Of a stretch of DNA of 64,000 bases, positions 4,899-57,755 are shown one piece after another; within the stretch, counting starts at the first letter, position 1, and the number at the start of each line of letters is the position of its first letter. The stretch is from Escherichia phage momo, in the sequence record MN850580.1. One strand, given 5' to 3'. The position numbers were made by a program, and so were the translations under genes. A model generated the notes under the pieces. The model was not told the origin of the DNA. It was given only the letters and a program-made list of their open reading frames with translations, and ran no database searches.

Positions 4899-4974
4899 TG
4901 GAGAATCCGAAGGGACTCGAACCCTTATAAACCTGTTTTGCAGACAGGCACATATCCATTTCTGTCACGGATTC
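4899..4974 (-). tRNA. tRNA-Cys(GCA): tRNA-Cys (anticodon GCA), CCA encoded
   Basis: Manual cloverleaf: acceptor GAATCCG/CGGATTC, anticodon loop CUGCAAA, T-loop. Confidence 0.65.
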
Positions 4975-4978
4975 AAAT

Positions 4979-5071
4979 TGGAGGAAGATACCAGACTTGA
5001 ACTGGTACACCGATTTCTCAGCTACTGGCAGTTTAGCAAACTGCTCCCTTACCTTTTAGGGTTAATCTTCC
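4979..5071 (-). tRNA. tRNA-Ser(GCU): tRNA-Ser (anticodon GCU), long variable arm, CCA encoded
   Basis: 93 nt; acceptor GGAAGAT/ATCTTCC; anticodon loop UUGCUAA. Confidence 0.6.
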
Positions 5072-5072
5072 A

Positions 5073-5870
5073 TTATTTCTGTAATGCGCTCTTCATTTCT
5101 GGTGTTGCAATAGTGTCAATCACACCAGTTTTACAAGCATCGTCAAACCAGTCTGGTAAGATACCTGCTAAGAACCCATTGATATTCGTTTTAAGGTACT
5201 CTGCAATAAGGGCAGCTTCTTCTTCAATCATCTGCACAACTTCATCTGCATAAGCTGTAATCTTTGAAATACCTTCATTAATCTTACTGACAGCTTGGTT
5301 AGCTAAATCAGAAACAGTATCAAGACCCTTATCAATAGCATCTTGTAAGTCACTTAACACACCATTAACACTATCTAGTGTACTGTTCATCATGTCAATA
5401 GCTTTTTGACCATACTCTGTAGCAACACCCATGATACCACTGAATGGTGTACAACCAACTTGTTCTCCTGCTGCACCCATAACATTGGAATACCCCTTTG
5501 CTACCTGCATACGTGATGAAAACTCATCAATAGATTTTTGACCGTAGTCTGTCAGAGTTTTAGTAGTTGCTGTAGTGCTTGTAAGGCTTGTTGTAAAGCT
5601 GTTTAGAAGGACTGTTGTAAGTCCAGCAGCAACAAGTTTCTCCTTCATTGTAGGGTCTGTTACAGAACTAATAGAGCTTACAAGTGATGTAGAAGCAGCT
5701 ACGGTTCCACCGAGAACTGCTGCACCAGTAATAAGCGGGTTAGAGAACCCTTTACCAGTTTTTAAGAGATTAAAAATCTCCTTACCTTGTTCTGTCATCT
5801 CTTTCATTAAGCACCTTTGAAATTGGTAGTCCAGTGGGATTTGAACCCTCTTCTCATGTTTTTCAGACAC
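5073..5870 (-). CDS. hypothetical protein embedded in tRNA array
   Basis: 265-aa ORF between tRNA genes; Ser/Thr-rich middle region. Confidence 0.4.
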   Translation of the reverse strand: MSEKHEKRVQIPLDYQFQRCLMKEMTEQGKEIFNLLKTGKGFSNPLITGAAVLGGTVAASTSLVSSISSVTDPTMKEKLVAAGLTTVLLNSFTTSLTSTTATTKTLTDYGQKSIDEFSSRMQVAKGYSNVMGAAGEQVGCTPFSGIMGVATEYGQKAIDMMNSTLDSVNGVLSDLQDAIDKGLDTVSDLANQAVSKINEGISKITAYADEVVQMIEEEAALIAEYLKTNINGFLAGILPDWFDDACKTGVIDTIATPEMKSALQK

Positions 5871-5899
5871 GCGCTTTAACCATATAAGCTACTTGGACT
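5824..5899 (-). tRNA. tRNA-Phe(GAA): tRNA-Phe (anticodon GAA)
   Basis: Anticodon loop CUGAAAA, T-loop TTCAAAT, CCA encoded. Confidence 0.6.
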
Positions 5900-5905
5900 A
5901 TAAAT

Positions 5906-5981
5906 TGGGGTGACCTACGGGATTTGAACCCGTATAGACCATGTTCACAGCATGGGTCATTACCGTTTATGATAAGGCCAC
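5906..5981 (-). tRNA. tRNA-His(GUG): tRNA-His (anticodon GUG)
   Basis: Acceptor with one G-U pair; anticodon loop CUGUGAA; CCA encoded. Confidence 0.65.
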
Positions 5982-6012
5982 ATTTAAGGACTCTCGCAAG
6001 AATCCTTAGAAG

Positions 6013-6088
6013 TGGCAGCGGCATAAGGATTTGAACCTTAATAGGACAGCTTCAGAGGCTGCTGCATTGCCAGTTATGCTATACCGCT
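6013..6088 (-). tRNA. tRNA-Gln(CUG): tRNA-Gln (anticodon CUG)
   Basis: Anticodon stem GCAGC/GCUGU, loop CUCUGAA. Confidence 0.55.
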
Positions 6089-6093
6089 AAATT

Positions 6094-6172
6094 TGGTACT
6101 CCATATCGGATTCGAACCGATACATAACACAGATTTTAAGTCTGGCCTCTCTGCCAATTGGAGTAATGGAGC
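6094..6172 (-). tRNA. tRNA-Leu(UAA)?: tRNA with anticodon UAA (Leu by anticodon) but short variable loop
   Basis: Acceptor and T-arm clear; anticodon loop CUUAAAA; no long extra arm. Confidence 0.5.
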
Positions 6173-6174
6173 AT

Positions 6175-6250
6175 TGGCGGGGGATGTTGGAATTGAACCA
6201 ACTTCTTCGATTTCAAAGACCGAGGTTTTAACCTTGTAAACTAATCCCCT
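6175..6250 (-). tRNA. tRNA-Gln(UUG): tRNA-Gln (anticodon UUG)
   Basis: Anticodon stem UCGGU/AUCGA, loop CUUUGAA; possible 1-72 mismatch. Confidence 0.55.
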
Positions 6251-6258
6251 TTAAATCT

Positions 6259-6816
6259 TTACTTTCTCAGTGGATGAATAAAGAATGCCAACATAACTCT
6301 TTCCCTTGAGAATGCTCTTTCTTCTGGGACAACACTTTTTAGTTTCCATCCAACATAAATTCTCCAGTAAAACTGTTTACCAAAGATTTTAATTGACGGA
6401 ATAAAAGCGAATAATCCCCAAGCATTGTTGTTCCACATTAGGAGATAACCTGTCTGATTATCTTCAGGGTCAGAACTTACGTTGATATTACCTTTCCACT
6501 TAGTAACATCTTTTACATCTCTTCCTAATACATGGTAAGAGAAGTTATAAGCTTTGTTTCTCCAGAGCCATCCAACTCTCTGCATATAAACACCGAGCTT
6601 GCCAATCTTTCTAATCTTAGCCCATCTTTTAATGTGACCTTCATCACCATCAATAGGGTTGTCATATGTCTCCATCCATCTGAATCCAAAAGGTAGATGC
6701 CCTTTCTTCTCACTATAGAATGGAACTACAAAAGGTGCTAAGATAACTGCTAAGGTTGCTGCCAATGGGTCTAACAAAGCTAGGAAAATCCATGAAGCAT
6801 ACTTCAAATATCTCAT
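6259..6816 (-). CDS. hypothetical membrane protein embedded in tRNA array
   Basis: 185-aa ORF with hydrophobic N-terminal segment. Confidence 0.4.
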   Translation of the reverse strand: MRYLKYASWIFLALLDPLAATLAVILAPFVVPFYSEKKGHLPFGFRWMETYDNPIDGDEGHIKRWAKIRKIGKLGVYMQRVGWLWRNKAYNFSYHVLGRDVKDVTKWKGNINVSSDPEDNQTGYLLMWNNNAWGLFAFIPSIKIFGKQFYWRIYVGWKLKSVVPEERAFSRERVMLAFFIHPLRK

Positions 6817-6835
6817 TTAAATAGCCTCTTTAAAT

Positions 6836-6911
6836 TGGCGCAGGATAAGGGATTCGAACCCCTATTAACAGCTTCGTAGACTGCTGCTCTATCCATTTGA
6901 ACTAATCCTGC
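6836..6911 (-). tRNA. tRNA-Arg(ACG): tRNA-Arg (anticodon ACG)
   Basis: Perfect acceptor GCAGGAT/ATCCTGC; anticodon loop CUACGAA. Confidence 0.65.
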
Positions 6912-6916
6912 AAAAT

Positions 6917-6994
6917 TGGTGTTCCAAGACGGATTCGAACCGTCACTAGTACAAGGTTTGAGCTTGCATCCTCTGCCAATTGGGATATTGGAAC
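6917..6994 (-). tRNA. tRNA-Leu(CAA)?: tRNA with anticodon CAA (Leu by anticodon) but short variable loop
   Basis: Acceptor GUUCCAA/UUGGAAC; anticodon loop CUCAAAC. Confidence 0.5.
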
Positions 6995-6995
6995 A

Positions 6996-7070
6996 TGGTA
7001 CTCACTAAAGGACTTGAACCTTTTTCTTCATCTTGTAAGGGTGATGTTTTACCATATAAACTAAGCGAGT
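6996..7070 (-). tRNA. tRNA-Val(UAC): tRNA-Val (anticodon UAC)
   Basis: Anticodon loop CUUACAA; T-loop TTCAAGT. Confidence 0.55.
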
Positions 7071-7165
7071 ATGAAAGAGGTCTGAAGTTGTGCCGCTAAC
7101 TCAACTCCGTGGAATTTGTTACGGTCTTCAGTTGACACCAGCGGTCTTTCACTTGACCTCTGAAT

Positions 7166-7241
7166 TGGTGCTCCCACAAGGATTCGAACCCTGATAAGTT
7201 GCTTACAAGGCAACCGTAATAGCCAATTATACGATAGGAGC
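7166..7241 (-). tRNA. tRNA-Thr(UGU): tRNA-Thr (anticodon UGU)
   Basis: Anticodon stem GUUGC/GCAAC, loop CUUGUAA. Confidence 0.65.
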
Positions 7242-7248
7242 ATTAATT

Positions 7249-7323
7249 TGGAGCATCCAGAGGGAATCGAACCCTCAACCTCAGTTTGGAAGACTGTAAT
7301 TTTCCCGTTTAAACTATGGATGC
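7249..7323 (-). tRNA. tRNA-Gly(UCC): tRNA-Gly (anticodon UCC)
   Basis: Perfect acceptor GCAUCCA/UGGAUGC; anticodon loop CUUCCAA. Confidence 0.65.
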
Positions 7324-7329
7324 ACTAAT

Positions 7330-7403
7330 TGGTGGAGTCACTGAGAATTGAACTCAGTTCCCAAGTTTGCAAAACTCGAATTTTAACCATATAAACTATG
7401 ACC
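7330..7403 (-). tRNA. tRNA-Ala(UGC): tRNA-Ala (anticodon UGC)
   Basis: Acceptor GGGGUCA with G3-U70 pair (Ala identity element); anticodon loop UUUGCAA. Confidence 0.65.
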
Positions 7404-7410
7404 CCATTGT

Positions 7411-7486
7411 TTGGTACAGGTGGAGGGAATTGAACCCATCGTCTTACTGATTAAGAGTCAGCCGCATAACCATTTTGCTACACCTG
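7411..7486 (-). tRNA. tRNA-Lys(CUU): tRNA-Lys (anticodon CUU)
   Basis: Anticodon stem GCUGA/UCAGU, loop CUCUUAA; weak T-stem. Confidence 0.5.
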
Positions 7487-7493
7487 CATTAAT

Positions 7494-7571
7494 TTGGTAG
7501 GAGACAAGGGATTCGAACCCTCAAACATCTCGTTCTAAGCGAGATAGGTTTACCAATTACCGTCAATCTCC
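7494..7571 (-). tRNA. tRNA-Leu(UAG)?: tRNA with anticodon UAG (Leu by anticodon) but short variable loop
   Basis: Perfect anticodon stem UCUCG/CGAGA, loop CUUAGAA; 5-nt variable loop. Confidence 0.55.
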
Positions 7572-7830
7572 CATTAAATCTTTTTAGAGAACTTCTAAGA
7601 ACCTAAGCAACAAGGTTCCACAACAAGCTGTAATAACCTTAGAAGCCCTCTAAAAAGACCTAAAAAGGTCTTTGCATAGTCTTGTTTAATCCGGTGACTA
7701 GAACCTTTGGAGAGCTTGATATTATCTCTTCTCCGTGACACCTACTAGGTGCTTTACTGTGCGTGTACGACAATACACTAGGGATACCAAAGCAACATCC
7801 GAATGAAGCTTGGCTTTAAATCTTATTAGG

Positions 7831-7918
7831 CGGTAAGTAAAGGAGTCGAACCCTCACCGTATCTCTACAGTGGCAACTGTTTTCAAGACAGTTTGGCTAC
7901 CATTAGCCGCTACCTACC
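7831..7918 (-). tRNA. tRNA-Ser(UGA): tRNA-Ser (anticodon UGA), long variable arm, no encoded CCA
   Basis: Perfect anticodon stem ACUGU/ACAGU, loop CUUGAAA; discriminator G. Confidence 0.6.
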
Positions 7919-7931
7919 CCTAATAAGACTT

Positions 7932-8014
7932 TGGCATGGGACGGAGGAGTTGAACCACTTTGAAACGGTTTTGGAGGCCGTTGCTCATGCCTTAGAGTCT
8001 TAACATCGTCCCAC
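7932..8014 (-). tRNA. atypical tRNA-like gene (possible anticodon CCA, Trp) with extra nucleotides between acceptor and D region
   Basis: Clear acceptor GUGGGAC/GUCCCAU, T-arm and encoded CCA, but D-region does not fold canonically in manual fold. Confidence 0.4.
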
Positions 8015-8157
8015 ACTATAATTCGAAGCTTACCGTATTTTCACAACACTGTAAAGCCCCTTCTCAGATTATTTACATGTTCTGGAAAACATGAGATACA
8101 GACCACCTCCTTACACGGAGACCCGATAAGGTCGTCTAAGTAATCTGCTAACTAAAT

Positions 8158-8239
8158 TGGTCGAGGCGGCAGGACTCGAACCCGCATACTCCACTTACTC
8201 GGTTAACGGCGGTTTAGAAGACCGCTGAGATACGCCCCG
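8158..8239 (-). tRNA. atypical tRNA-like gene; one perfect 5-bp stem with loop CUUCUAA (UCU), no canonical D-arm
   Basis: Acceptor CGGGGCG/CGCCUCG, T-arm and CCA present; body folds ambiguously. Confidence 0.35.
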
Positions 8240-8487
8240 TAATTATCTTTAAAGACTCTCTTAGAAAGCCCTTAAAGATGCCCACCTTATTAATCATACC
8301 GTGGGCTAGTACGCCAAATTCTTTGATGAGGGATTGGAAGACCTCACTGGTGTTTAGCCTATCAAGCTACTGCCAGAAAAACATTGTCGTTTGCATTTAT
8401 TTTAAATTTGCAAAATAGACGCTACGCAACGAAAACTAAGGTTACTATAAAGTAGTCGCATCTCAATGTCAACAACTTTATTGAAAT

Positions 8488-8563
8488 TGGTACTGGTAGG
8501 TGGAATCGAACCACCGATGTTCCCTTATCAGGGGAGTGTTATAACCTTCTTAACTATACCAGC
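8488..8563 (-). tRNA. tRNA-Ile(GAU): tRNA-Ile (anticodon GAU)
   Basis: Anticodon loop CUGAUAA; T-arm GGUGG/CCACC. Confidence 0.6.
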
Positions 8564-8564
8564 T

Positions 8565-8641
8565 TGGAGGTTCAGATGGGAATCGAACCCACATTCATAG
8601 GGCTTATGAGACCCTTGCATTACCTTATCTGCGACTGAACC
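8565..8641 (-). tRNA. tRNA-Met(CAU): tRNA-Met (anticodon CAU)
   Basis: Perfect acceptor GGUUCAG/CUGAACC; anticodon loop CUCAUAA. Confidence 0.6.
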
Positions 8642-8645
8642 ATAT

Positions 8646-8720
8646 TGGTAGAAGTGGAGGGATTCGAACCCATCGCCTGTCAGATTAAAAGTCTGCCGCA
8701 TCACCATTCTGCTACACTTC
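8646..8720 (-). tRNA. tRNA-Lys(UUU): tRNA-Lys (anticodon UUU)
   Basis: Anticodon stem GCAGA/UCUGA (one G-U), loop CUUUUAA. Confidence 0.6.
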
Positions 8721-8872
8721 CATTAAATTATCTTTGTAGATAAGCTACCCAGACTTGCTTAAGGTCTGTAGCGATGTGACTTTTTGGGTTTAAATCTAGA
8801 ATTTACCCTTTCACCCTTTGTGGTCGCATACTCACAGGTAAGCTTAATAACTTATCTACAAAGATAATTACC

Positions 8873-9003
8873 AGACCGTTGTTTATCATCTTAAGTGCTA
8901 CCATTACACCAACTCGACCTCTGCCGAGTGAAGGAATCGAACCTTCGCCTTTTCTTTACCGAGAAATAGATTGTTTAAGTTTTGCTGTAAACGGTCTTCT
9001 GTA
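8873..9003 (-). repeat. tRNA-spacer hairpin repeat (CCAGACC...GGTCTTCTG) enclosing a T-arm-like hairpin
   Basis: Inverted termini CCAGACCGTT / AACGGTCTTCTG; internal GAAGG-AATCGAA-CCTTC with no matching acceptor stem. Confidence 0.4.
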
Positions 9004-9013
9004 AATTTGTTGA

Positions 9014-9113
9014 GCCAGACCAAGTTTTAAATTTTTTCAAAATTGAATTGGCTTGAAAATATCATACATTCTTGCTGTATTTGGTCTTCTACTCCTTTAA
9101 AGAATACTCGTAA
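9014..9113 (-). repeat. tRNA-spacer hairpin repeat (CCAGACC...GGTCTTCT)
   Basis: Same terminal inverted repeat as 8873-9003. Confidence 0.4.
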
Positions 9114-9152
9114 GAACTCTTTAAGGGAGGGGCTAAATAGCCCTCTCAAAAT

Positions 9153-9230
9153 TGGCGGTTACGAAGGGATTTGAACCCTCATCATCTCCCGTGACAGGGG
9201 AGTATTTTAACCAAATTAAACTACATAACC
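9153..9230 (-). tRNA. tRNA-Asp(GUC): tRNA-Asp (anticodon GUC)
   Basis: Perfect anticodon stem CUCCC/GGGAG, loop CUGUCAC. Confidence 0.65.
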
Positions 9231-9235
9231 TTTAT

Positions 9236-9323
9236 TGGTGTGCCGTGTAGGAGTCGAACCTACCGAGTCTCAATGACAAGGGATTTACAGTCCCCACCGC
9301 TACCATCTACGGGATAACGACAC
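9236..9323 (-). tRNA. tRNA-Tyr(GUA): tRNA-Tyr (anticodon GUA), long variable arm
   Basis: 85-nt body; anticodon loop CUGUAAA. Confidence 0.6.
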
Positions 9324-9331
9324 ATTTAATT

Positions 9332-9408
9332 TGGCGGTTAGTCAGGGATTCGAACCCTGTGCCATTCGCTTAACAGGCGACCGCACATACCTTATGTGCT
9401 TCCTAACC
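9332..9408 (-). tRNA. tRNA-Asn(GUU): tRNA-Asn (anticodon GUU)
   Basis: Anticodon loop CUGUUAA; T-arm CAGGG/CCCUG. Confidence 0.55.
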
Positions 9409-9418
9409 TTAATACATT

Positions 9419-9481
9419 GCCAGACCGTGTTTTTTCTTTTATCCGCAAAAAAGTATTTTGTTGCTGAATACGGTCTTCTGC
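9419..9481 (-). repeat. tRNA-spacer hairpin repeat (CAGACCGT...ACGGTCTTCTG)
   Basis: Terminal inverted repeat, immediately 3' of tRNA in transcript orientation. Confidence 0.4.
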
Positions 9482-9486
9482 AAAAT

Positions 9487-9563
9487 TGGAGGCGGGTGCA
9501 GGAGTCGAACCTGCCGATACCATGCTAATGAGACATGTGAGACGCCCTTTCTCTATACCCGCA
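9487..9563 (-). tRNA. tRNA-Met/Ile2(CAU): tRNA with anticodon CAU (initiator Met, elongator Met or lysidine Ile2)
   Basis: Anticodon stem CAUGU/GCAUG, loop CUCAUUA; possible 1-72 mismatch. Confidence 0.5.
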
Positions 9564-9574
9564 ATTCTTAATGA

Positions 9575-9648
9575 CCAGACCAAATCTCTTCTTTGTCCGA
9601 TTTACCTTCAGATGAATAAGATTAAGTTTGCTGTAATTGGTCTTCTGT
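9575..9648 (-). repeat. tRNA-spacer hairpin repeat (CCAGACCAA...TTGGTCTTCTG)
   Basis: Terminal inverted repeat as in the other spacers. Confidence 0.4.
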
Positions 9649-9654
9649 CAAAAC

Positions 9655-9732
9655 TGGCGTTCCAGAAGGGATTTGAACCCTCAGATATCCACTTTGAAAG
9701 AGTGGTGACTATACCATTTTGTCTACTGGAAC
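9655..9732 (-). tRNA. tRNA-Glu(UUC): tRNA-Glu (anticodon UUC)
   Basis: Perfect acceptor GUUCCAG/CUGGAAC; anticodon loop CUUUCAA. Confidence 0.65.
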
Positions 9733-9739
9733 ATTAATT

Positions 9740-9816
9740 TGGTCTCTGTTGGAGGACTTGAACCTCCGGCCTTACCGCCCCAAACGGAACGCTCTACCAA
9801 TCTGAGCTAAACAGAG
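9740..9816 (-). tRNA. tRNA-Pro(UGG): tRNA-Pro (anticodon UGG)
   Basis: Perfect acceptor CUCUGUU/AACAGAG; D-arm GCUC/GAGC; anticodon loop UUUGGGG. Confidence 0.65.
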
Positions 9817-9934: not shown

Positions 9935-9963
9935 ATATTAAAGGGTATCAAACACATTGTCAA
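9935..9963 (-). promoter_or_regulatory. sigma70-like promoter for the tRNA array
   Basis: Minus strand TTGACA, 17-nt spacer, TAATAT, about 120 nt upstream of first tRNA. Confidence 0.5.
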
Positions 9964-11397: not shown

Positions 11398-11478
11398 ATT
11401 TTACTCTCTTCTCTCATTTGTTGTTTGATGTGACAGACTTTAGAGCAACTTTGTAGAGTCTGTCAACACCTTTTAAAA

Positions 11479-11850
11479 TTATTTTTTGAGAGTCGCTACA
11501 GCAGAGAACGTTGGTTTGTTATCTGTCTGTTGTTGACCACCACTATCAGGAGTCTTCTTAGTGTCTGCTGCAAGTGCTTTCATCTCACCTGCTGAGTGAG
11601 TAAAGATAGTTTTACCGACCTCAATCATACTCTTGATGGTTACGTCATCTGTGTTTAACCCGAACTCTGCAAGCTTAGCAGCATCCCTTGTAACAATCGC
11701 TTCAAATAACTTTGCAGCAAACTCAGCAGAATTGTCAATGGTCAGTTGAGCTTTTACAAGTGAGCTTTTGTTGCGAGAGCCTTTTGGTCTTCCAGATGGG
11801 TTTCCAGATTGGCCTTTTTTAAACTGGCCTTTGTTTGTTCTGTTTTTCAT
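11479..11850 (-). CDS. hypothetical protein with basic N-terminal motif
   Basis: 123 aa beginning MKNRTNKGQFKKGQSGNPSGRPKGSRNK. Confidence 0.45.
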   Translation of the reverse strand: MKNRTNKGQFKKGQSGNPSGRPKGSRNKSSLVKAQLTIDNSAEFAAKLFEAIVTRDAAKLAEFGLNTDDVTIKSMIEVGKTIFTHSAGEMKALAADTKKTPDSGGQQQTDNKPTFSAVATLKK

Positions 11851-12099
11851 TGGTATGCCTCTTATAAGACCTCTTAAAAGGCTTTTAAGATAAAAGATAG
11901 ATATCCAGAAAGATATCTGTTTAAATAGCCTTTTTAGAGGAACCTTTTAAGTTATCTTCTAAGTATTTATAAGCCTACACCTTGTCAAGTACTTTGTCAA
12001 CAACTTTTTTAACTTGCAATAGTTCTTGACTTGTTGTATGGATTACTGTACCATCTTACTTAAAGCTGTAGGTCTGCCTTGTTCTACAAAGGAGACTTA

Positions 12100-12261
12100 A
12101 TGAGAAAATCAAATAAACCGAAGAAAGGTAAGAATACCAATCACTGTAAGGAATCAAAAAGGGTAGAGTTAATCTACTATTCATCCTCTGAAATTGGTCT
12201 GTACCTGTTCTTTCAAAATTACAGAAGACAAGAGGATTATCTATGTGTAGTTCCCAATTAG
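12100..12261 (+). CDS. hypothetical small basic protein
   Basis: ATG at 12100 preceded by AAGGAGA; ORF track start is an upstream alternative. Confidence 0.3.
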   Translation: MRKSNKPKKGKNTNHCKESKRVELIYYSSSEIGLYLFFQNYRRQEDYLCVVPN

Positions 12262-12476
12262 AAATCGCAGATATTATAGATTTATATCAAACTGCAAAGA
12301 GTCATGGCTATATAACCTCAATTGGAAAGAATAGTCACTATGATGCTTTGACTGGAATGTATTTCAGGGCAATGGCTCAATCTAGTGAACAACACTTAAT
12401 GGTTTCTTCCAGTGAGTTTACTTCGTTTCTCTATTGCAGCAAAATTATAAATCGCAGGAGAACTGAAAAATGTTAA
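12243..12476 (+). CDS. hypothetical protein
   Basis: 77-aa ORF in plus-strand cluster. Confidence 0.3.
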   Translation: MCSSQLEIADIIDLYQTAKSHGYITSIGKNSHYDALTGMYFRAMAQSSEQHLMVSSSEFTSFLYCSKIINRRRTEKC

Positions 12477-13060
12477 CAGTAAGTTTTAATTACAATAGTG
12501 ATGGCTCTGTATCAATTAATTCACCATATGCAAATGACCTACTTAAAGAGCTAGTCAATCAGTGTGATAGAGGTCTTCACTATGTTCAAAATTCTTTTAA
12601 ACAGAAGACTATTGCTAATAACTTGATGCGTGTAACAGTGACGGCATCGAATCCAAATTATGACTTTGATAGTGAAAGTCCGTACTCATTAGTTGCGCTT
12701 GGAGAGAGCAGCCAATTCAAACTTGTTTGCCACGACTCAGAAACATTTCTTAAGGTATTTTCCAACCTTATCCATAATAATAAGTACAGCTACGTTGATA
12801 GTAGTGTAAACTTCTATCCAGCAAACTATACATGTTTGTTGGTTGATAATATGAGAAAAAGTAAGCAAGAGCCTACAGAAATTTCATTTGATGTGAACTC
12901 TAGTCCAGACGCAGAAACAAGTAAGAACTTTGATATGAGTTACGCATTGTCACTTAGTAAGAAATCCGAGTTCATTGATTATGTCAATGGATTTGGTTTT
13001 AAGTTTGATGAGAGTATGAATCTTAAAAAACTTAAGAACCTACTTAAGACCAAAGCTTAA
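12470..13060 (+). CDS. hypothetical protein
   Basis: 196-aa ORF followed by hairpin. Confidence 0.45.
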   Translation: MLTVSFNYNSDGSVSINSPYANDLLKELVNQCDRGLHYVQNSFKQKTIANNLMRVTVTASNPNYDFDSESPYSLVALGESSQFKLVCHDSETFLKVFSNLIHNNKYSYVDSSVNFYPANYTCLLVDNMRKSKQEPTEISFDVNSSPDAETSKNFDMSYALSLSKKSEFIDYVNGFGFKFDESMNLKKLKNLLKTKA

Positions 13061-19058: not shown

Positions 19059-19068
19059 AATATCTTAA

Positions 19069-19100
19069 GAGCCTCCTTAATTGGGGGCTTTTTAATTTTT
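19069..19100 (+). terminator. rho-independent terminator closing plus-strand cluster
   Basis: AGCCTCC-loop-GGGGGCT followed by TTTTTAATTTTT. Confidence 0.5.
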
Positions 19101-19105
19101 ATAAA

Positions 19106-20700
19106 ATTTTATCGGTTGTCCCAACCTCTGGGTCACCATCATATGTGAATAAAATATCTACCCTTCTTAACAACCTTCTTAAGCTTACTCTCTATATATA
19201 GTTATATAGTACTATATAGTATCTTAGTATCTATCTAGTGGTCTTAATAGCCCCTCTGTATAGCCCTTCTAAATAGCCTTCTAAACACTCTTCTAACAAG
19301 CCTTCTTAATAACCTATACAATCACCTTAACCATTCCTCTACACACTCTTAGAAGCTCCTATACACCTCTTAATCTCTATGTCAGCTATGATACCCTCTA
19401 TAGGTGTTCACTAGGTACTACTAAGCCTCTATATAGACTGTTTTAACAAACTTAACAGGAATATCTTCACAGACTTTATCTCACAAGGTCTAACACGGCA
19501 CTAACAAGGTATCTTATAAGCCTGTTTCTACCTGTATTTTTAAAAGACTGTATAGGTAATTATTCAGAATCTTAAAATTTTTATAAAATAGAGCTATCAA
19601 GTCATTTTTTAGGGTCTTTGAAGGAACTGAAAAATATCTGTAGAAGATGTATATCTGCTTGGTAGCCCTTAACAGCCCCCTTACAAGTACTTTGCAAAAT
19701 TTTAAAATATCCTTAACAATCTCTTAACAGTTCTCACACCTTCTTAACAACTCTTCAAAGGTCTTAACAGATTCTTAACAGAACTAACAAGGATGTAACA
19801 GTTTTCTAACAAGTGCTGAATAGGCTTTACAGAATCTTAACAGATGACTAACAAGAGCTAAGTAGTTAAATGTTAAGAGTTATTTTGTTAAGATAATTAA
19901 CAAGTTTCTAACAAGTGTTTAATCTTTTTAACAAGCTATTAACATGGTCACTACTCTTTTCTTATCGTTCCCTTTGCTTCTTAGTGATTCTTTAAACATA
20001 CCTCTTAAAAGCCCTCTATAGCTCCTTGTAAGCTCTTTTAAGTCTCTTCCTAGTATTTACCCCCAACTATACAGACACCTCTTTATAAGGCTTTACAGAA
20101 GCTTTAAAGGCTATGTCAAAGGCTCTTACAAGGCTTTTACATGGTCTTAACAGAGATTTAACAAGGGGCTAACAAGTTGCTAACAAGTGCCTTAAAAGCA
20201 TAACTATGTAGGGTTTGTTAAGAAATTGTTAAGAAAATGTTAAGGGGGCTAGCATTTACGTAACTTTTAAGCTACTTCAAAATAACTTTTAAACTACTTC
20301 AAAATAACTTTATAGCCCCCTTCTTAGATATTCACAAGATAGCTAACGAGATAATAAAGCTTACACCCTTATAAGATTCTTTTAAGTCTCTGGGAAGCTT
20401 TATAAAGGGCTTTTTAGGGTGAGTTAATGCAATCCCTTAAGTTAGGTTGATAAGGCTGTTATAGAGCTTTATAGAGCGTTTAAACGGTTGCCCTTCCCTT
20501 TCGGGTTATGGGCTTATATTTAAGTTGATTTGATAAAAGGCTATAGAGTAGACTATAGAGTTATTGCTTTTTAAGGTCTGATAAGATTCTGGAAAGGAAA
20601 GGGAAAGGGCTGTATAAGGGATTTGATAAGACGTAAAAAAGCCCCTATGAGATAGACTCTATCGAATCTATATGGGAAAGGGGCTGTAAAGGTATCTGGG
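19106..20700. promoter_or_regulatory. 1.6-kb non-coding region dense in short direct repeats; candidate origin / regulatory hub
   Basis: No ORF over 60 aa; more than 20 copies of (T/C)TAACA(G/A)G, TATATAGT repeats at 19195-19245, 21-nt tandem duplication at 20281-20322. Confidence 0.5.
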
Positions 20701-20723
20701 GCTATTTAGCCCCGTTGCGGCGT

Positions 20724-20972
20724 TTAGTTAGTGCCTTTTTTGTCGTAGTACAGGGAGACAATTTTTTCACCCCAGTAGTGGTATGTATAACCCTCTTTGA
20801 GAACTTCCTGTTTTGTTTCTTTCCAGAATTCATCAGAGGGGTTGTAGTCACTGATGGTCTGGCTGATGAGGCCTTTCACCATTTCAAAGGTGTTATCAGT
20901 ACCTACAAGGTCAAATTTAACGTCCAGAGAGTAGAAGCCGAATTCGTTAACAGTTGCGCGGATAGTAGCCAT
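20724..20972 (-). CDS. hypothetical small protein (cassette array)
   Basis: 82-aa ORF directly preceded by conserved leader ending AAACTGGAGATTCTAAAATG. Confidence 0.5.
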   Translation of the reverse strand: MATIRATVNEFGFYSLDVKFDLVGTDNTFEMVKGLISQTISDYNPSDEFWKETKQEVLKEGYTYHYWGEKIVSLYYDKKGTN

Positions 20973-21051
20973 TTTAGAATCTCCAGTTTAGGAAGTTGAT
21001 TAAGGGTTTTATTTAGTGGGGAAGGTCATTCCCTCCCCGTTGATTGACAAT
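20973..21051 (-). repeat. conserved stem-loop plus leader cassette, variant A
   Basis: GGGGAGGGAATGACCTTCCCC hairpin then CTAAACTGGAGATTCTAAA leader. Confidence 0.6.
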
Positions 21052-21582
21052 TTACAGACTTTTGATTGTCTCGTCAATATCTTTTTCAATATCTTTTAAA
21101 GTTTTTTCTAAGTTCTTGATATTGAAAGATAAGCCCTCTCCTAGTGTCTTAGAGTAACCGCTAGGACGTGAGTTATATAGTTCGATTTCTTCCACTTCGA
21201 AGAGACTAACCAACTCACCGCTTACACTGTAAGCCATTGAAACAGTATTTACAGGGGCTTTATAAAACTTGTTTAAGGACTTGATAGAACGTTCATAAGC
21301 CATTTTATAACCGTTTAAAAGGTTTTTAACGTGGTTACGAACGTTTTTGCACTCATCTAAGTAAATCTCTAAGAATAACGGTAATAATTCCGCTACAGCT
21401 TGCATAAAGTGAGAGACTACAACAGTAGAAACATTACGGCGATGAATGTAATAAGCCCCGTTTTCTGACTTAGTGATGGTTGCAAAGTGTACCCCATTGC
21501 AGCGAAATTCGTATGTGTCTTTTACAGGTTTTGACATTACAGCATTTGAACGAATGAAGTTGATAGCTTTAAACTTGTTCAT
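21052..21582 (-). CDS. hypothetical protein (cassette array)
   Basis: 176-aa ORF preceded by cassette. Confidence 0.5.
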   Translation of the reverse strand: MNKFKAINFIRSNAVMSKPVKDTYEFRCNGVHFATITKSENGAYYIHRRNVSTVVVSHFMQAVAELLPLFLEIYLDECKNVRNHVKNLLNGYKMAYERSIKSLNKFYKAPVNTVSMAYSVSGELVSLFEVEEIELYNSRPSGYSKTLGEGLSFNIKNLEKTLKDIEKDIDETIKSL

Positions 21583-21665: not shown

Positions 21666-21801
21666 GATTGCAAGCAATTTTTTAAGCTTATCTATAAAGA
21701 ATCTTTTAAGTGAATCCCTTTTAGATAAACCCCCTCGAACAAAGTTACCAATGTCAAGGGGTATTGTCAACACTTTTTAAAAGTTTTTTGTAAGTTATTG
21801 A

Positions 21802-23077: not shown

Positions 23078-23163
23078 TTTTTGAATCTCCAGTTTAGGAT
23101 TTAGTGGTAAAGCTCTTTATCTGGGGCTTACTTTATCGAACTATAAGCCCCTTGTAAAGTACT
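23078..23163 (-). repeat. conserved stem-loop plus leader cassette, variant B
   Basis: GGGGCTTA-13 nt-TAAGCCCC hairpin; minus strand TTTACA-17 nt-TAAAGT promoter-like; leader with SD GGAG. Confidence 0.6.
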
Positions 23164-23367
23164 TTATTTGTTATTTTTGACAACTTTTAAGACTGCAAGA
23201 TACCCTAAGCAATAAGAATCACCGAAGAGAGTCCTACCCATGAAAGAATCCTCTTTGATATCCTTTGTAGTGACAGTTTTTTCTACGCCGTGGGAAAGGA
23301 CTATATCGCCAACTTTGATATCTTTGATGTGTGTAGTTTCAATGTTTAAGCCGTTAATAATAGCCAT
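23164..23367 (-). CDS. hypothetical small protein (cassette array)
   Basis: 67-aa ORF preceded by variant A cassette. Confidence 0.5.
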   Translation of the reverse strand: MAIINGLNIETTHIKDIKVGDIVLSHGVEKTVTTKDIKEDSFMGRTLFGDSYCLGYLAVLKVVKNNK

Positions 23368-23872: not shown

Positions 23873-23958
23873 TTTTAAGTTCTCCAGTTTAGGATTTAGT
23901 GGTAAAGCTCTTTATCTGGGGCTTACTTTATCGAACTATAAGCCCCCTGTAAAGTACT
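23873..23958 (-). repeat. conserved stem-loop plus leader cassette, variant B
   Basis: Near-identical to 23078-23163. Confidence 0.6.
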
Positions 23959-24231
23959 TTACACTAAATGCAGCTTTTTACCTTTTACTATGATGTAACT
24001 CGATGCGCTATTGCTTTGCACATCCTGATAAATTCTGCGCAAACGGCCTTCGTAGTATACTTTCCAACTGGTTGGAATCTTTTTCCCGTATCCTGTAGCA
24101 GTTTTTTGTAGTCCTGCAAGTTGCCAATCTAAGATATGTTGTTCGGCTTGTAAATCTTCGAAGTGCATTACACCGTTCACATAGTGACGAATGGTTACGT
24201 TTAAGGTGCGACCGTTGTTAGTAGTGTACAT
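23959..24231 (-). CDS. hypothetical protein (cassette array)
   Basis: 90-aa ORF preceded by cassette. Confidence 0.5.
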   Translation of the reverse strand: MYTTNNGRTLNVTIRHYVNGVMHFEDLQAEQHILDWQLAGLQKTATGYGKKIPTSWKVYYEGRLRRIYQDVQSNSASSYIIVKGKKLHLV

Positions 24232-25546: not shown

Positions 25547-25634
25547 TTTTGAATCTCCAGTTTAGGATTTAGTGGTAAAGCTCTTTATCTGGGGCTTAAG
25601 ATATCAACTTTTAAGCCCCTTGTAAAGTACTTTA
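25547..25634 (-). repeat. conserved stem-loop plus leader cassette, variant B
   Basis: GGGGCTTAAGATATCAACTTTTAAGCCCC hairpin and leader. Confidence 0.6.
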
Positions 25635-25892
25635 TCAGATTAAATTGCCAGTTAATGATAAGTGCATTTTATAGCCTTTTTTGGTAAAGACGTTCACTTT
25701 ACCGAGTGATTTTACACCTTTAAAAAGGTTGTTTGAACTGCGTTTTAAGGTTAGTTGTTTATCAGCCTTTACTCCCCATCTTACAGCGGATTGTTTTCCG
25801 TTGTCAACCACTTTCCCGCATAACTTTTTAGCCATAACGCGAGCGTCATCACGAGTTTTTGCAGCAATTACAACGTTTTTGATAATAGCCAT
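25635..25892 (-). CDS. hypothetical basic protein (cassette array)
   Basis: Start placed at MAIIKNVV directly after cassette; ORF track start is an upstream alternative. Confidence 0.45.
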   Translation of the reverse strand: MAIIKNVVIAAKTRDDARVMAKKLCGKVVDNGKQSAVRWGVKADKQLTLKRSSNNLFKGVKSLGKVNVFTKKGYKMHLSLTGNLI

Positions 25893-32906: not shown

Positions 32907-32985
32907 CTTATTACTCTCTCTTGTTAGTTAATAAATCATTTTGTAAGGCTATTCTAAGGGGCTTCGAAGCCCCTTGTCAAACACT

Positions 32986-41727: not shown

Positions 41728-42101
41728 ATAGTTTTACCATTATCACATGTGTAAAGATACTCTACAGAAGTTTGTGGGACAAGTATAGTGGTGCTACCAC
41801 TAAGTACACTCACAAAATGAGTAACCTCACGATGCTGATGAGTTTTTACACAATTGTTTGCCTCCATCCATATCACAGTTTTGTATGAATAGAACACTGC
41901 CAAGACACAAAGGGCAATAACCCCAACTATCATGGCAAACTCAGGCAAAAAATCTGACTGTATTATGTCTCTAAATCGCATTATTCCAAGAATAAATAAG
42001 ATTATCAGACATACAATCCCACAAGCTGCTACATAAAGCCACAAGTCCATAATGTAACTCCAAATAAAAAGGTGATGTAAGCCTATCAAGACCCACATCA
42101 C
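41715..42101 (-). CDS. hypothetical membrane protein
   Basis: 128 aa, several hydrophobic segments. Confidence 0.35.
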   Translation of the reverse strand: MMWVLIGLHHLFIWSYIMDLWLYVAACGIVCLIILFILGIMRFRDIIQSDFLPEFAMIVGVIALCVLAVFYSYKTVIWMEANNCVKTHQHREVTHFVSVLSGSTTILVPQTSVEYLYTCDNGKTIWWN

Positions 42102-42112
42102 CTTGTCAAGTT

Positions 42113-43060
42113 TTACATAGAAATTCTGTCACGAATCTCAGCGATTTTTGCATCATTCATTCGGGATTCACCTTTAATCTTAGTCCATCCCAAATATCCG
42201 CACACCCTGTTAATCACAGAGATATCGTGTGAATGACAAACCTCACATTCTTCAACATCAGCCTTTGGTCTGTTACCACAATGTTCACAGATTGCTAAGT
42301 CAAAGTTAAGTCCCTGATAGAAACCTTTCAACATCCCTCTTGTAATACAACTTTTAAGTGCTGTTAAGTTTTCTGGGTTAGCTACTCTTACATACTGGAT
42401 TCTACCACCTCTACAGATATGGAAGAATGGCTCTTCTAAGTCCTGCTTCTCAAATGGTGAGATGTCTGCTGCAACATTCATATGGAAACTGTTTGTAAAG
42501 TATTCCTTGTCAGAGACACCTTTAATAACGCCAAACATATCTCTGAACTGTTTTAACTGAGTTCCACAAAGTGATTCTGCTGGAGTGCCATATACCGCAT
42601 ACAAGAAGCCATCTTCGTTCTTAAACTCTTCAGTTTTCATGTTGATGTATGCCAGAACATCATATGCAAAACTATAGCTTCCAACTTCATGAAGTCGTTT
42701 ACCTTCAGCAAGAACAGATAGCTCATCAAGCGCAGTAACCCCAAAAGAAGCTGTGAAGGACTTCACAATATCCCAACCAACCCTGTCAGTAGGCTTCTTA
42801 GTTCCTTTGTACAGACCACCTTGCGTGAATGCAAGAGGGTTAGAACTTGCTGGCATATTAGCAATCATTTCGTAGCGTTTCTTGTGGAAGCTGCGAATCA
42901 TCTCTAGGTACTTATCAAGCTCTTTCCAGAAATCTAAACCATTCTCTTTAGAATACTGGTAAATCATTGGTAAGTTCAAAGATACAGCACCAATGTTAGC
43001 ACGACCTACATAAAACTCTTCACCATGTTCGTTATGGTATGGTGATAAAAATGCTCTACA
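42113..43060 (-). CDS. nrdD: anaerobic ribonucleoside-triphosphate reductase NrdD, exon 2 (C-terminal glycyl-radical domain)
   Basis: C-terminal zinc-ribbon CEHCG...CEVCHSHD and glycyl-radical RVCGYLG; reading frame is open upstream to 43081; proposed exon start at codon TGT gives junction SPMG|CRAFLSP. Confidence 0.6.
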   Translation of the reverse strand, partial: CRAFLSPYHNEHGEEFYVGRANIGAVSLNLPMIYQYSKENGLDFWKELDKYLEMIRSFHKKRYEMIANMPASSNPLAFTQGGLYKGTKKPTDRVGWDIVKSFTASFGVTALDELSVLAEGKRLHEVGSYSFAYDVLAYINMKTEEFKNEDGFLYAVYGTPAESLCGTQLKQFRDMFGVIKGVSDKEYFTNSFHMNVAADISPFEKQDLEEPFFHICRGGRIQYVRVANPENLTALKSCITRGMLKGFYQGLNFDLAICEHCGNRPKADVEECEVCHSHDISVINRVCGYLGWTKIKGESRMNDAKIAEIRDRISM

Positions 43061-57074: not shown

Positions 57075-57075
57075 A

Positions 57076-57498: not shown

Positions 57499-57755
57499 GT
57501 AAGCCTCTTTTAAGTAACTATTAAGTTTTAATCTTTTATCTTAACGTATTCTATACGTTATACTTTAAAGCTTTTTAAAAGCTATTAAATAATCTTTTAA
57601 GAGTTTTAAAGTATCTGTATAGTTAAACTGTTAAGTAACCTTTTAAGTAAAAACCCACTTCGCAAAGATTAACACCTTGTCAAGTACATTGTCAACTTGC
57701 TTTTTATAATTTTTTGCAGTAATGTATGAGGTTAATGATTTTAGAGGGAGTAAAA

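What the first reader, a model, noticed from the sequence alone, without database searches (positions are those of the whole stretch)
11960..12060. Shared motif CCTTGTCAAGTAC(T/A)TTGTCAAC at both divergent-transcription junctions
An almost identical ~22-nt element occurs at 11979-12002 and 57673-57696, the two places where minus- and plus-strand gene blocks diverge. Read on the minus strand it is GTTGACAAAGTACTTGACAAGG with two TTGACA hexamers. Partial copies (CCTTGTCAA / CCTTGTAAAGTACTTTA) occur at 32968, 42097 and in variant B cassettes. It may be a bidirectional promoter or regulator site.
Basis: seen in the sequence. Interest (0 to 1): 0.4.

Follow-up and report, generated by a model that had tools for sequence, protein, structure and literature searches.

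The report
Twin -35 boxes of phage promoters
The shared motif is real and is most likely the upstream half of two ordinary host-type (sigma-70) promoters of a Felix O1-like phage, unusual only in carrying a second, strictly conserved TTGACA box whose role is unknown.

Summary
A 25-nt block, 24/25 identical, lies at 11977-12001 and 57672-57696, at the two divergent gene-block junctions of a Felix O1-like phage (Felixounavirus).

Related phages show that the 22-mer itself is not what is conserved. What is conserved is two perfect TTGACA hexamers 6 nt apart on the minus strand. Both are invariant across Felixounavirus, Suspvirus and Mooglevirus, while the 6 nt between them vary freely.

The upstream hexamer sits 3-4 nt after an A-tract, as in eight other TTGACA promoter-like sites in the window. 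A weak but conserved TAnnnT follows it at 17 nt (junction 1) or 18 nt (junction 2).

I read both copies as -35 regions of sigma-70-type promoters firing on the minus strand, into Felix O1 genes 41 onward and 97 onward. The plus-strand genes have their own adjacent promoter candidates.

Copy 1 is the predicted promoter 'P41' of the 2010 Felix O1 paper. Both copies are already annotated as promoters in phage AYO145A. A third twin-hexamer promoter (7-nt gap) lies at 21752-21770.

The 'partial copies' are unrelated single -35 promoter-like sites. The role of the second hexamer is unexplained. No transcription start data exist. Overall this is ordinary, with one small curiosity.

The parts
11977..12001 (-). 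Copy 1 of the shared 25-nt block (minus strand: GTTGACAAAGTACTTGACAAGGTGT), at the Felix O1 gene 40/41 junction
   Evidence: Homologous to Felix O1 21515-21541, 'P41'.
11995..12000 (-). Junction 1 hexamer 1, TTGACA: proposed -35
   Evidence: Invariant in 11 sequence variants from 3 genera. Preceded by an A-tract, as in the other family members.
11983..11988 (-). Junction 1 hexamer 2, TTGACA, lying inside the spacer; role unknown
   Evidence: Invariant while the 6 nt between the hexamers vary at 6/6 positions.
11972..11977 (-). Junction 1 proposed -10, TAGGCT, 17 nt after hexamer 1
   Evidence: Variants are TAGGCT/TAGCCT/TAGTGT/TAAGTT: T1, A2 and T6 are kept, the inner bases are free.
12005..12010 (-). 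Junction 1 A-tract (AAAAAA), 4 nt upstream of hexamer 1; UP-element-like
57672..57696 (-). Copy 2 of the shared block (GTTGACAATGTACTTGACAAGGTGT), at the Felix O1 gene 96 (DNA polymerase)/97 junction
   Evidence: Homologous to Felix O1 63532.
57690..57695 (-). Junction 2 hexamer 1, TTGACA: proposed -35
   Evidence: Invariant. AYO145A annotates a promoter over the span equivalent to 57666-57695.
57678..57683 (-). Junction 2 hexamer 2, TTGACA, in the spacer
   Evidence: Invariant; 4/6 positions between the hexamers vary.
57666..57671 (-). Junction 2 proposed -10, TAATCT (TAGTCT in Mooglevirus), 18 nt after hexamer 1, preceded by TGn (extended -10)
57701..57716 (-). Junction 2 A/T-rich tract upstream of hexamer 1 (minus strand: AAAAAATTATAAAAAG)
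57697..57725 (+). Separate plus-strand promoter candidate for the DNA polymerase operon: TTGCTT-N17-TAATGT, back to back with hexamer 1
   Evidence: Conserved as TTGCTT...TAATGT/TAGGGT in Suspvirus and Mooglevirus. The TATAAT at 57705-57710 is not conserved.
12014..12054 (+). Plus-strand promoter candidates for genes 40 to 24: TTGCAA-N17-TATGGA (12014-12042) and TTGACT-N17-TACCAT (12026-12054)
   Evidence: The region is near-invariant in relatives.
21742..21770 (-). Third twin-hexamer promoter: TTGACA-N7-TTGACA-TTGG-TAACTT, upstream of the Felix O1 ORF22 homologue (21052-21582)
   Evidence: Hexamers invariant, N7 variable, -10 is TAACTT/TAATGT in 17 relatives.
11941..11952 (-). Shared downstream (leader) block ACTTAAAAGGTT, copy 1
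57637..57648 (-). Shared downstream (leader) block ACTTAAAAGGTT, copy 2
32972..32984 (-). 'Partial copy': an independent promoter-like site, TTGACA-N18-TAGAAT, with hairpin GGGGCTTCGAAGCCCC in its spacer, upstream of rIIB
42101..42113 (-). 'Partial copy': an independent promoter-like site, TTGACA-N18-TAGGCT, nested in a terminator-like hairpin just after the nrdD stop codon

Best explanation
Both copies are the upstream halves of host-RNA-polymerase (sigma-70-type) promoters that fire on the window's minus strand, which is the Felix O1 plus strand.

Copy 1 would start the transcript of Felix O1 gene 41 (DUF5681), gene 42, the tRNA cluster and onward. Copy 2 would start the transcript of gene 97 and the replication and nucleotide-metabolism genes.

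Proposed working, all inferred:
- The alpha subunits of RNA polymerase dock on the A-tract.
- Sigma-70 region 4 reads the upstream TTGACA as the -35.
- Sigma region 2 opens a weak -10. This is TAGGCT at 17 nt for junction 1, and TGn-TAATCT at 18 nt for junction 2.
- The perfect -35 plus the A-tract would compensate for the weak -10.
- Transcription would start near 11965 and near 57659.

The element therefore lies in DNA that neither divergent promoter transcribes, so it acts as DNA.

The second TTGACA lies inside the spacer, 5-6 nt before the -10. It is under the same strict selection as the first hexamer but has no -10 partner of its own. My best guess (inference only) is that it is a second docking site of -35 specificity. 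It could be read by sigma-70 region 4 or by a phage factor that mimics it. That would let the three twin-hexamer promoters of the genome be tuned or shut off as a group.

Shown here: the sequence anatomy, its conservation pattern, membership in a promoter family and the orientation. Inferred: the transcription start, promoter strength, timing and the role of hexamer 2.
For: 1. Identity of the genome. The window is a Felixounavirus, up to 99.9% identical to known phages. It runs antiparallel to the Felix O1 record.

2. Conservation pattern at the junctions.
- Junction 1 has 11 distinct variants from Felixounavirus, Suspvirus and Mooglevirus. Both hexamers are invariant (0/12 positions variable). 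In the other core positions 22/32 are variable (Fisher p = 6e-5). All 6 inter-hexamer positions vary.
- Junction 2: 0/12 against 9/32 (p = 0.047).

3. The -10 behaves like a -10.
- Junction 1 at N17: TAGGCT, TAGCCT, TAGTGT, TAAGTT.
- Junction 2 at N18: TAATCT and TAGTCT, with TGn kept.
- T1, A2 and T6 are fixed and the inner bases are free.
- Pectobacterium phage Arno162 has TTGACA-N17-TAGGCT at its junction 2.

4. Family membership. Ten sites in the window share 'ttttaaaaag-N2-4-TTGAC[A/T]' plus TAnnnT at 16-18 nt: 8472, 9872, 9963, 11466, 12000, 21770, 23459, 26925, 57695 (minus) and 63500 (plus). All ten point the same way as the downstream genes. In the twin sites the A-tract adjoins hexamer 1. 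TGTTGACA is enriched in intergenic DNA, 7 of 10 copies.

5. Independent annotation.
- Whichard et al. 2010 list P41 as TTGACA(N15)TATAGG at 21515-21541, which is hexamer 1.
- The AYO145A record annotates promoters on this strand over the equivalents of 11966-12000 and 57666-57695.

6. A third twin-hexamer promoter, with the same conservation pattern, lies between co-oriented genes. The whole Felix O1 genome has exactly these three, all on one strand.

7. No co-variation of the inter-hexamer bases between the two junctions. The 22-nt identity in this genome is therefore incidental, not maintained.
Against: - No transcription start site has been mapped in any Felix O1-like phage that I could find.
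- Both -10 hexamers match TATAAT at only 3/6. The tool's own promoter scan, which needs 4/6, did not report either site.
- The second hexamer is not explained by a plain promoter model. No TAnnnT lies 16-19 nt downstream of it at any of the three sites.
- RT-PCR in Felix O1 puts ORFs 41, 42, 97 and 98 at maximal level at 25 min rather than 5 min. That is not what a strong constitutive host-type promoter would predict by itself. ORF22, behind the third twin promoter, peaks at 5 min.
- The orthologous junctions of Kolesnikvirus phages use single-hexamer promoters. The twin arrangement is therefore not essential to junction function.
Confidence: 0.78

Rival explanations
1. The twin TTGACA repeat is chiefly an operator. 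A phage-encoded or host DNA-binding protein would bind the two direct repeats and switch the junction promoters (and the one at 21770) on or off together. The resemblance to a -35 would be what lets it compete with sigma-70. This is compatible with the promoter reading, because it concerns hexamer 2.
For: - Hexamer 2 is as invariant as hexamer 1 in three promoters and three genera, yet has no -10 partner.
- Only three such pairs exist in the whole Felix O1 genome.
- All three are followed by related leader motifs, CT(T)AAAAGG and A(C/T)AGATA.
- Felix O1 encodes an HTH_3 regulator, ORF85, in the polymerase operon. It has a weak, sub-threshold Sigma70_r4 similarity.
- Flanking genes peak at 25 min in RT-PCR.
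Against: - The gap between hexamers is 6 or 7 nt, and the distance to the -10 is 4, 5 or 6 nt. This is not the fixed geometry expected of a rigid tandem binder.
- XRE-type HTH proteins usually bind inverted repeats, not direct ones (general knowledge).
- No binding data exist. A protein reading TTGACA would also see the many single-hexamer promoters.
Confidence: 0.2
2. A truly bidirectional promoter. The same hexamers, read as TTGTCA on the plus strand, would serve as the -35 of the plus-strand transcripts as well.
For: TTGACAA is nearly self-complementary, so each hexamer reads TTGTCA (5/6) on the plus strand. At junction 1 the scan finds TTGTCA(11994)-N18-AATAGT preceded by TG, and this stretch is conserved in relatives.
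Against: - At junction 2 nothing -10-like lies 16-18 nt to the right of either TTGTCA. The only good plus-strand -10 there, TATAAT at 57705, is at the wrong spacing (10 or 22 nt). It is also replaced by TGAAAC or TGAAGA in Suspvirus and Mooglevirus.
- In Moogle junction 1 the plus-strand reading degrades to ATGTCA.
- The third twin site is not at a divergent junction.
- Separate, conserved plus-strand promoter candidates exist.
Confidence: 0.12
3. An activator site for the plus-strand promoters. Two TTGTCAA direct repeats would act like a PhoB 'pho box' or another response-regulator site upstream of the polymerase and gene-40 promoters.
For: On the plus strand the element reads TTGTCAA-N5-TTGTCAA. 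This resembles CTGTCAT-N4-CTGTCAT (pho box, from memory). In this window a TATAAT lies 10 nt downstream at junction 2 and a TAACTT at junction 1.
Against: - The period is 12 nt (13 at the third site), not 11.
- The downstream TATAAT is not conserved.
- The position of the repeats relative to the best plus-strand promoter candidates differs between the two junctions.
- The third site has no divergent gene.
Confidence: 0.03
4. Part of a replication origin placed at the strand-switch points.
For: Both copies lie where gene orientation and GC skew switch, in A+T-rich DNA with repeated CTTAAAAG motifs. Several phages place origins at promoters (general knowledge).
Against: - GC skew simply follows the coding strand.
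- There are only two short repeats per site.
- The conservation pattern (hexamers plus TAnnnT) is promoter-like.
- The third copy is not at a strand switch.
- A far more iteron-like region, with many 11-bp-period repeats, lies in the ORF-free gap 19059-21051.
Confidence: 0.04

Closest known systems
Predicted Felix O1 promoter P41 (Whichard et al. 2010, PMC3185647) and the 'promoter' features of the phage vB_EcoM_AYO145A record NC_028825
   Same: Copy 1 is the orthologue of P41: Felix O1 21515 is hexamer 1. AYO145A annotates promoters on the same strand over both copies.
   Different: - Those are consensus matches only.
- Whichard et al. paired hexamer 1 with TATAGG at N15. They also stated that nothing homologous was seen in the 96-97 gap.
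- Neither source notes the second hexamer, its conservation, or the third twin site.
Strong phage early promoters read by host sigma-70 with A-rich upstream (UP-like) elements, such as T4 and T5 early promoters and E. coli rrnB P1 (from general knowledge)
   Same: An A-tract directly upstream of a consensus or near-consensus -35; recognition by unmodified host polymerase; many copies per genome.
   Different: - The -10 hexamers here are weak (3/6).
- A second perfect -35 hexamer occupies the spacer.
- Activity and timing are untested.
Lambda CII / P22 C1 activator sites (TTGC-N6-TTGC direct repeats straddling the -35 of PRE)
   Same: Two short TTG-containing direct repeats separated by 6 nt in the -35 region of a phage promoter with a poor -10.
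   Different: - The period is 12-13 nt rather than 10.
- The repeats are full -35 consensus hexamers, and the upstream one is at the -35 itself.
- The phage is virulent, and no CII-like gene is annotated in Felix O1.
Back-to-back divergent promoter pairs and overlapping tandem promoters, such as gal P1/P2 (general knowledge)
   Same: At junction 2 the minus-strand -35 (57690-57695) and the plus-strand -35 candidate (57697-57702) are 1 bp apart. The two polymerases would therefore compete for overlapping upstream DNA.
   Different: The second hexamer has no -10 of its own, so this is not a classical pair of complete overlapping promoters.

Membership tests
Sigma-70-type (-35/-10) promoter | -35 hexamer close to TTGACA | tested here: met
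   Exact TTGACA at 12000-11995 and 57695-57690, invariant in relatives.
Sigma-70-type (-35/-10) promoter | -10 hexamer (TAnnnT) 16-18 nt downstream of the -35 | tested here: met
   TAGGCT at N17 and TGn-TAATCT at N18. This is only 3/6 to TATAAT, but T1/A2/T6 are conserved through 4 and 2 sequence variants. The tool's stricter scan (4/6 per hexamer) does not list them.
Sigma-70-type (-35/-10) promoter | Points at a downstream gene with no closer upstream gene on that strand | tested here: met
   Minus-strand genes start at 11850 and 57498. Both are the first genes of their blocks.
Sigma-70-type (-35/-10) promoter | Transcription initiates about 7 nt after the -10, dependent on sigma-70 holoenzyme | not testable with these tools
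   No TSS or in vitro data found for any Felix O1-like phage.
UP-element-assisted promoter | A/T tract at about -40 to -60, adjoining the -35 | tested here: met
   AAAAAA at 12005-12010 and AAAAAATTATAAAAAG at 57701-57716 (minus strand). Shared by ten family members. Comparison with the published UP consensus is from memory only.
Bidirectional promoter sharing one -35 | -10-like hexamers at 16-18 nt on both sides of the same hexamer, at both copies | tested here: not met
   Present only at junction 1 and absent at junction 2.
Lambda CII-type activator site | TTGC-N6-TTGC, 10-nt period, flanking the -35 | tested here: not met
   The period is 12 nt (13 at 21770), and the upstream repeat is itself at the -35 position.
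PhoB pho box (plus-strand reading) | 7-nt direct repeats with an 11-nt period, replacing the -35, about 10 nt upstream of a conserved -10 | tested here: not met
   The period is 12. The plus-strand TATAAT at 57705 is not conserved in Suspvirus or Mooglevirus.
T4 middle promoter (MotA box) | (a/t)(a/t)TGCTT(t/c)A centred at -30, with MotA/AsiA encoded by the phage | tested here: not met
   The motif itself has no TGCTT. The neighbouring plus-strand TTGCTT sits at normal -35 spacing (N17). No MotA or AsiA is annotated in Felix O1.
Replication origin with iterons | Array of three or more iterons plus an unwinding element; initiation mapped there | tested here: inconclusive
   There are only two 6-nt repeats per site. 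A richer repeat array lies elsewhere, at 19712-20311. Initiation cannot be tested here.

The most novel reading that the evidence does not exclude
The twin -35 arrangement (TTGACA-N6/7-TTGACA, then a weak -10) could be a dedicated regulatory device of the Felix O1 clade. In this reading the in-spacer hexamer is a decoy or operator of -35 specificity. A second sigma-70 region 4, or a phage-encoded sigma-4-like HTH protein such as ORF85, would bind it to throttle or time three key promoters together. Those promoters drive the tRNA and morphogenesis entry, the replication module, and ORF22. That would be a promoter-control mechanism not described for sigma-70 promoters.
Probability: 0.15. Interest if true: 0.5.

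Novelty: new member of a known kind. Interest (0 to 1): 0.25.

Why it matters
How Felix O1-type phages time their transcription is unknown. They encode no RNA polymerase and no recognised sigma-modifying proteins (PMC3185647). These phages are widely used for Salmonella typing and biocontrol.

Three results make the question directly testable with a handful of reporter and 5'-mapping experiments:
- Both divergent junctions are placed in one A-tract/TTGACA promoter family.
- The direction in which the junction promoters fire is assigned.
- A three-member subclass with a conserved extra -35 hexamer is flagged.

Otherwise the finding is a routine promoter prediction that others have already partly annotated.

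Tried and rejected
1. Pho-box-like or activator reading on the plus strand. Rejected because the downstream TATAAT at 57705 is not conserved and the period is 12.

2. Second hexamer as the -35 of a second overlapping promoter. I looked 15-19 nt downstream of it at all three sites and in relatives. I found only TACTTA/AAYACT (junction 1), AAGTGG (junction 2) and GGGGGT (21770), so this was rejected.

3. Concerted evolution or gene conversion between the two copies. The inter-hexamer bases of junctions 1 and 2 assort independently among 20+ genomes.

4. A palindrome or inverted-repeat operator. CTTGTCAAG and AAGTACTT are palindromic in this genome, but not in Suspvirus or Mooglevirus.

5. A known RNA family. 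Rfam finds only tRNAs and a group I intron, and nothing at the junctions.

6. Literature search for transcription start data or a described twin -35. Nothing found. One search failed on syntax.

7. One IMG/VR scan was wasted on a mistyped anchor (4 G instead of 5). It was replaced by a protein-anchored search.

8. De novo k-mer enrichment in intergenic DNA. It recovered mainly the repeated promoter-hairpin cassettes, TGTTGACA and CTTAAAAG, and no alternative promoter motif at the junctions.

Full report
**What the window is.** The stretches 11400-12500 and 57000-58200 match about 250 Felix O1-like phages (Felixounavirus) at 95-99.9% identity. The window runs antiparallel to the Felix O1 reference. 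Its minus strand is therefore the Felix O1 plus strand.
- The gap 11851-12099 is the Felix O1 gene 40/41 junction.
- The gap 57499-57725 is the gene 96 (DNA polymerase)/97 junction.
- These are the only two places in the window where a minus-strand block and a plus-strand block diverge.
- Whichard et al. 2010 describe the same four 'transcriptons'. They assumed divergent promoters between genes 96 and 97.

**Checking the observation.** The 22-mer occurs exactly twice, at 11980-12001 and 57675-57696, with none expected by chance.
- The identity extends to 25 nt, 24/25.
- On the minus strand it reads GTTGACAA[A/T]GTACTTGACAAGGTGT, with two exact TTGACA hexamers 6 nt apart.
- TTGACA-N6-TTGACA occurs nowhere else in the window. 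About 0.06 is expected from the hexamer's own frequency.

**What is actually conserved.** I collected the orthologous junctions without using the hexamers as bait. The anchors were the flanking sequences CATACAACAAGTCAAGAA and TKCGAAGTGGGTTTT in IMG/VR, plus GenBank records of Felixounavirus, Suspvirus and Mooglevirus.
- Junction 1 gave 11 distinct sequences, and junction 2 also gave 11.
- In all of them both hexamers are invariant.
- The six bases between them vary freely. Junction 1 shows AAGTAC, AAGGAC, AAGCAC, AATGAC, TTCCTC, AGGGGA and AGCCTC. Junction 2 shows ATGTAC, ATGCAC, ATTCAC, AATCAC, ATACAC, ATGCGC and AAGCAC.
- Variable positions are 0/12 in the hexamers against 22/32 in the rest of the core at junction 1 (Fisher p = 6e-5). 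At junction 2 they are 0/12 against 9/32 (p = 0.047).
- At junction 1, 22 of the 34 variable columns of the whole 137-column alignment fall in the non-hexamer core positions. This is the usual footprint of a promoter whose contact points are fixed and whose spacer is free.
- The inter-hexamer bases of the two junctions assort independently among genomes. The near-perfect 22-nt identity in this genome is therefore incidental. The 'GTAC' is not part of the functional element.

**Direction and promoter anatomy.**
- Seventeen nt after the upstream hexamer at junction 1 lies TAGGCT. Its variants are TAGCCT, TAGTGT and TAAGTT.
- Eighteen nt after the upstream hexamer at junction 2 lies TAATCT or TAGTCT, preceded by TGn.
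- In both cases T1, A2 and T6 are kept and the inner bases drift.
- Phage Arno162, a more distant member of the subfamily, has TTGACA-N17-TAGGCT at its junction 2.
- A window-wide scan finds ten sites with the same layout: 'ttttaaaaag', then 2-4 nt, then TTGAC[A/T], then TAnnnT at 16-18 nt. They are at 8472, 9872, 9963, 11466, 12000, 21770, 23459, 26925 and 57695 on the minus strand, and at 63500 on the plus strand.
- All ten point the same way as the genes downstream. In the junction copies the A-tract adjoins the upstream hexamer.
- TGTTGACA is enriched in intergenic DNA.

I therefore read the upstream hexamer as the -35 of an A-tract-assisted sigma-70-type promoter on the minus strand. Predicted starts are near 11965 and 57659 (inference). 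Independent annotators reached the same call. Felix O1 'P41', TTGACA(N15)TATAGG at 21515-21541, starts at hexamer 1. The AYO145A record marks promoters on this strand over the equivalents of 11966-12000 and 57666-57695. Whichard et al. explicitly saw nothing comparable in the 96-97 gap, so the link between the two junctions appears not to have been noticed.

**The plus-strand side.** The plus-strand genes have their own candidates:
- TTGCTT(57697)-N17-TAATGT. It is conserved as TAATGT/TAGGGT and lies 1 bp from the minus-strand -35.
- TTGACT(12026)-N17-TACCAT, or TTGCAA(12014)-N17-TATGGA.

The attractive TATAAT at 57705 is not conserved: it is TGAAAC in Suspvirus and TGAAGA in Mooglevirus. This removes a pho-box-like plus-strand reading. 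Only at junction 1 could the complement of hexamer 1 serve as a plus-strand -35. 'Bidirectional' is thus at most half true.

**The second hexamer.** The second TTGACA lies in the spacer, 5 nt (junction 1) or 6 nt (junction 2) before the -10. It has no TAnnnT partner 16-19 nt downstream.
- The whole Felix O1 genome has exactly three TTGACA pairs with gaps of 4-9 nt: the two junctions and one upstream of ORF22.
- The ORF22 site is at window 21770-21752: TTGACA-N7-TTGACA-TTGG-TAACTT.
- In 17 relatives of that third site the hexamers are again invariant. The 7-nt gap varies, and the -10 is TAACTT or TAATGT.
- The third site lies between co-oriented genes. The twin arrangement is therefore not a property of divergent junctions.
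- The distances from hexamer 2 to hexamer 1 (6 or 7 nt) and to the -10 (4, 5 or 6 nt) are not fixed. This argues for an independently recognised unit rather than a rigid composite site.
- Arno162 also has a -35-like TTTACA in its spacer, whereas Kolesnikvirus junction promoters have a single hexamer.
- I cannot say what hexamer 2 does. Possibilities are a second sigma region-4 docking site or the operator of a phage factor. Felix O1 ORF85, just beyond the window end, is an HTH_3 protein with weak Sigma70_r4 similarity. Both are speculation.

**Extended similarity.** The two junction regions align beyond the motif. Upstream they share TGCAA and the A-tract. Downstream they share ACTTAAAAGGTT (11952-11941 and 57648-57637) and ACAGATA. 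The third site carries related motifs. Suspvirus and Mooglevirus have AAAAGACT at both junctions where Felix-type phages have AAAAGGTT. That is a parallel change at two loci, and I did not follow it up.

**The 'partial copies'.** These are independent promoter-like sites that share only TT[G/T]ACAAGG:
- TTGACA-N18-TAGAAT, with a hairpin in its spacer, upstream of rIIB (32984).
- TTGACA-N18-TAGGCT, nested in a terminator-like hairpin after nrdD (42113).
- Five TTTACA-N17-TAAAGT cassettes with a GGGGCTTA...TAAGCCCC hairpin.

**Limits.** No transcription start data exist for this phage group. The -10 hexamers are weak, and the tool's own stricter scan does not list these sites. Felix O1 RT-PCR shows ORFs 41, 42, 97 and 98 peaking at 25 min and ORF22 at 5 min.

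**Verdict.** The feature is real and conserved, and most likely an ordinary host-type promoter module. It has already been partly annotated by others. It carries one unexplained detail, a strictly conserved second -35 hexamer in the spacer, present in three promoters per genome. Interest is low to moderate.

Noticed in passing
window 43110-43437 (minus strand): Rfam group I intron (RF00028, 54.4 bits, above the gathering score). It lies between ORFs 43374-44573 and 42113-42979, which together correspond to the single nrdD gene of Felix O1. This phage's anaerobic ribonucleotide reductase gene therefore appears to be intron-split.
   Followed up: no
window 19059-21051: About 2 kb at the convergent junction has no long ORF. 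It is packed with short tandem repeats of 11-nt period: CTTAACAGATT x6.8 at 19712-19782, TAACAAGTGGC x2.8 at 20159, TTGTTAAGAAA x2.7 at 20215, and a 22-nt unit x2.3 at 20261. These look iteron-like, so this may be a replication origin or a regulatory array.
   Followed up: partly
window 11941-11952 and 57637-57648 (minus strand); relatives: Both junction leaders share ACTTAAAAGGTT about 12-25 nt after the predicted starts, and also ACAGATA further on. Suspvirus and Mooglevirus carry AAAAGACT at both junctions where Felix-type phages carry AAAAGGTT. This parallel two-base change at two loci hints at a common trans-acting partner.
   Followed up: partly
window-wide; clusters at 11873-11951, 20004-20386, 57514-57647: The octamer CTTAAAAG (complement CTTTTAAG) is enriched in intergenic DNA, with 16 of its 28 copies there. 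It sometimes occurs as an inverted pair, CTTAAAAG-C-CTTTTAAG, at 11873-11889.
   Followed up: partly
window 23150-23200, 23945-23995, 25618-25668, 25965-26015, 26436-26486 (minus strand): Five near-identical intergenic cassettes: AAAGTACTTTACAAGGGGCTTATAGTTCGATAAAGTAAGCCCCAGATAAAGAGCTTTACC. Each has a TTTACA-N17-TAAAGT promoter-like site whose spacer and -10 lie inside a hairpin. One copy (25630) keeps both the hairpin and a -10 through different bases. They correspond to the 57-bp repeats reported for Felix O1.
   Followed up: partly
window 11910-11929 and 57542-57560: Perfect inverted repeats lie in the two junction leaders: AGATATC-N6-GATATCT and TAACGTAT-N3-ATACGTTA. Their sequences are unrelated to each other. 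They could be operators or RNA hairpins (read).
   Followed up: no
window 9938-9963 (minus strand): GGGTATTGACAATGTGTTTGATACCC-TTT is a terminator-like hairpin listed for Felix O1. It also contains TTGACA-N17-TAATAT and a -35-like TTGATA 6 nt after the TTGACA. It sits between gene 42 and the 25-gene tRNA cluster (4899-9816), so it combines a terminator and a promoter.
   Followed up: no
L007/L008 (Kolesnikvirus junction 1), about 2300-2370: Erwinia and Hafnia phages have TTGACA-N16-TAGAAT followed 6 nt later by another TTGACA, just upstream of the gene 41 homologue. This is a second -35-like hexamer at a different position from that in the Felix clade.
   Followed up: no
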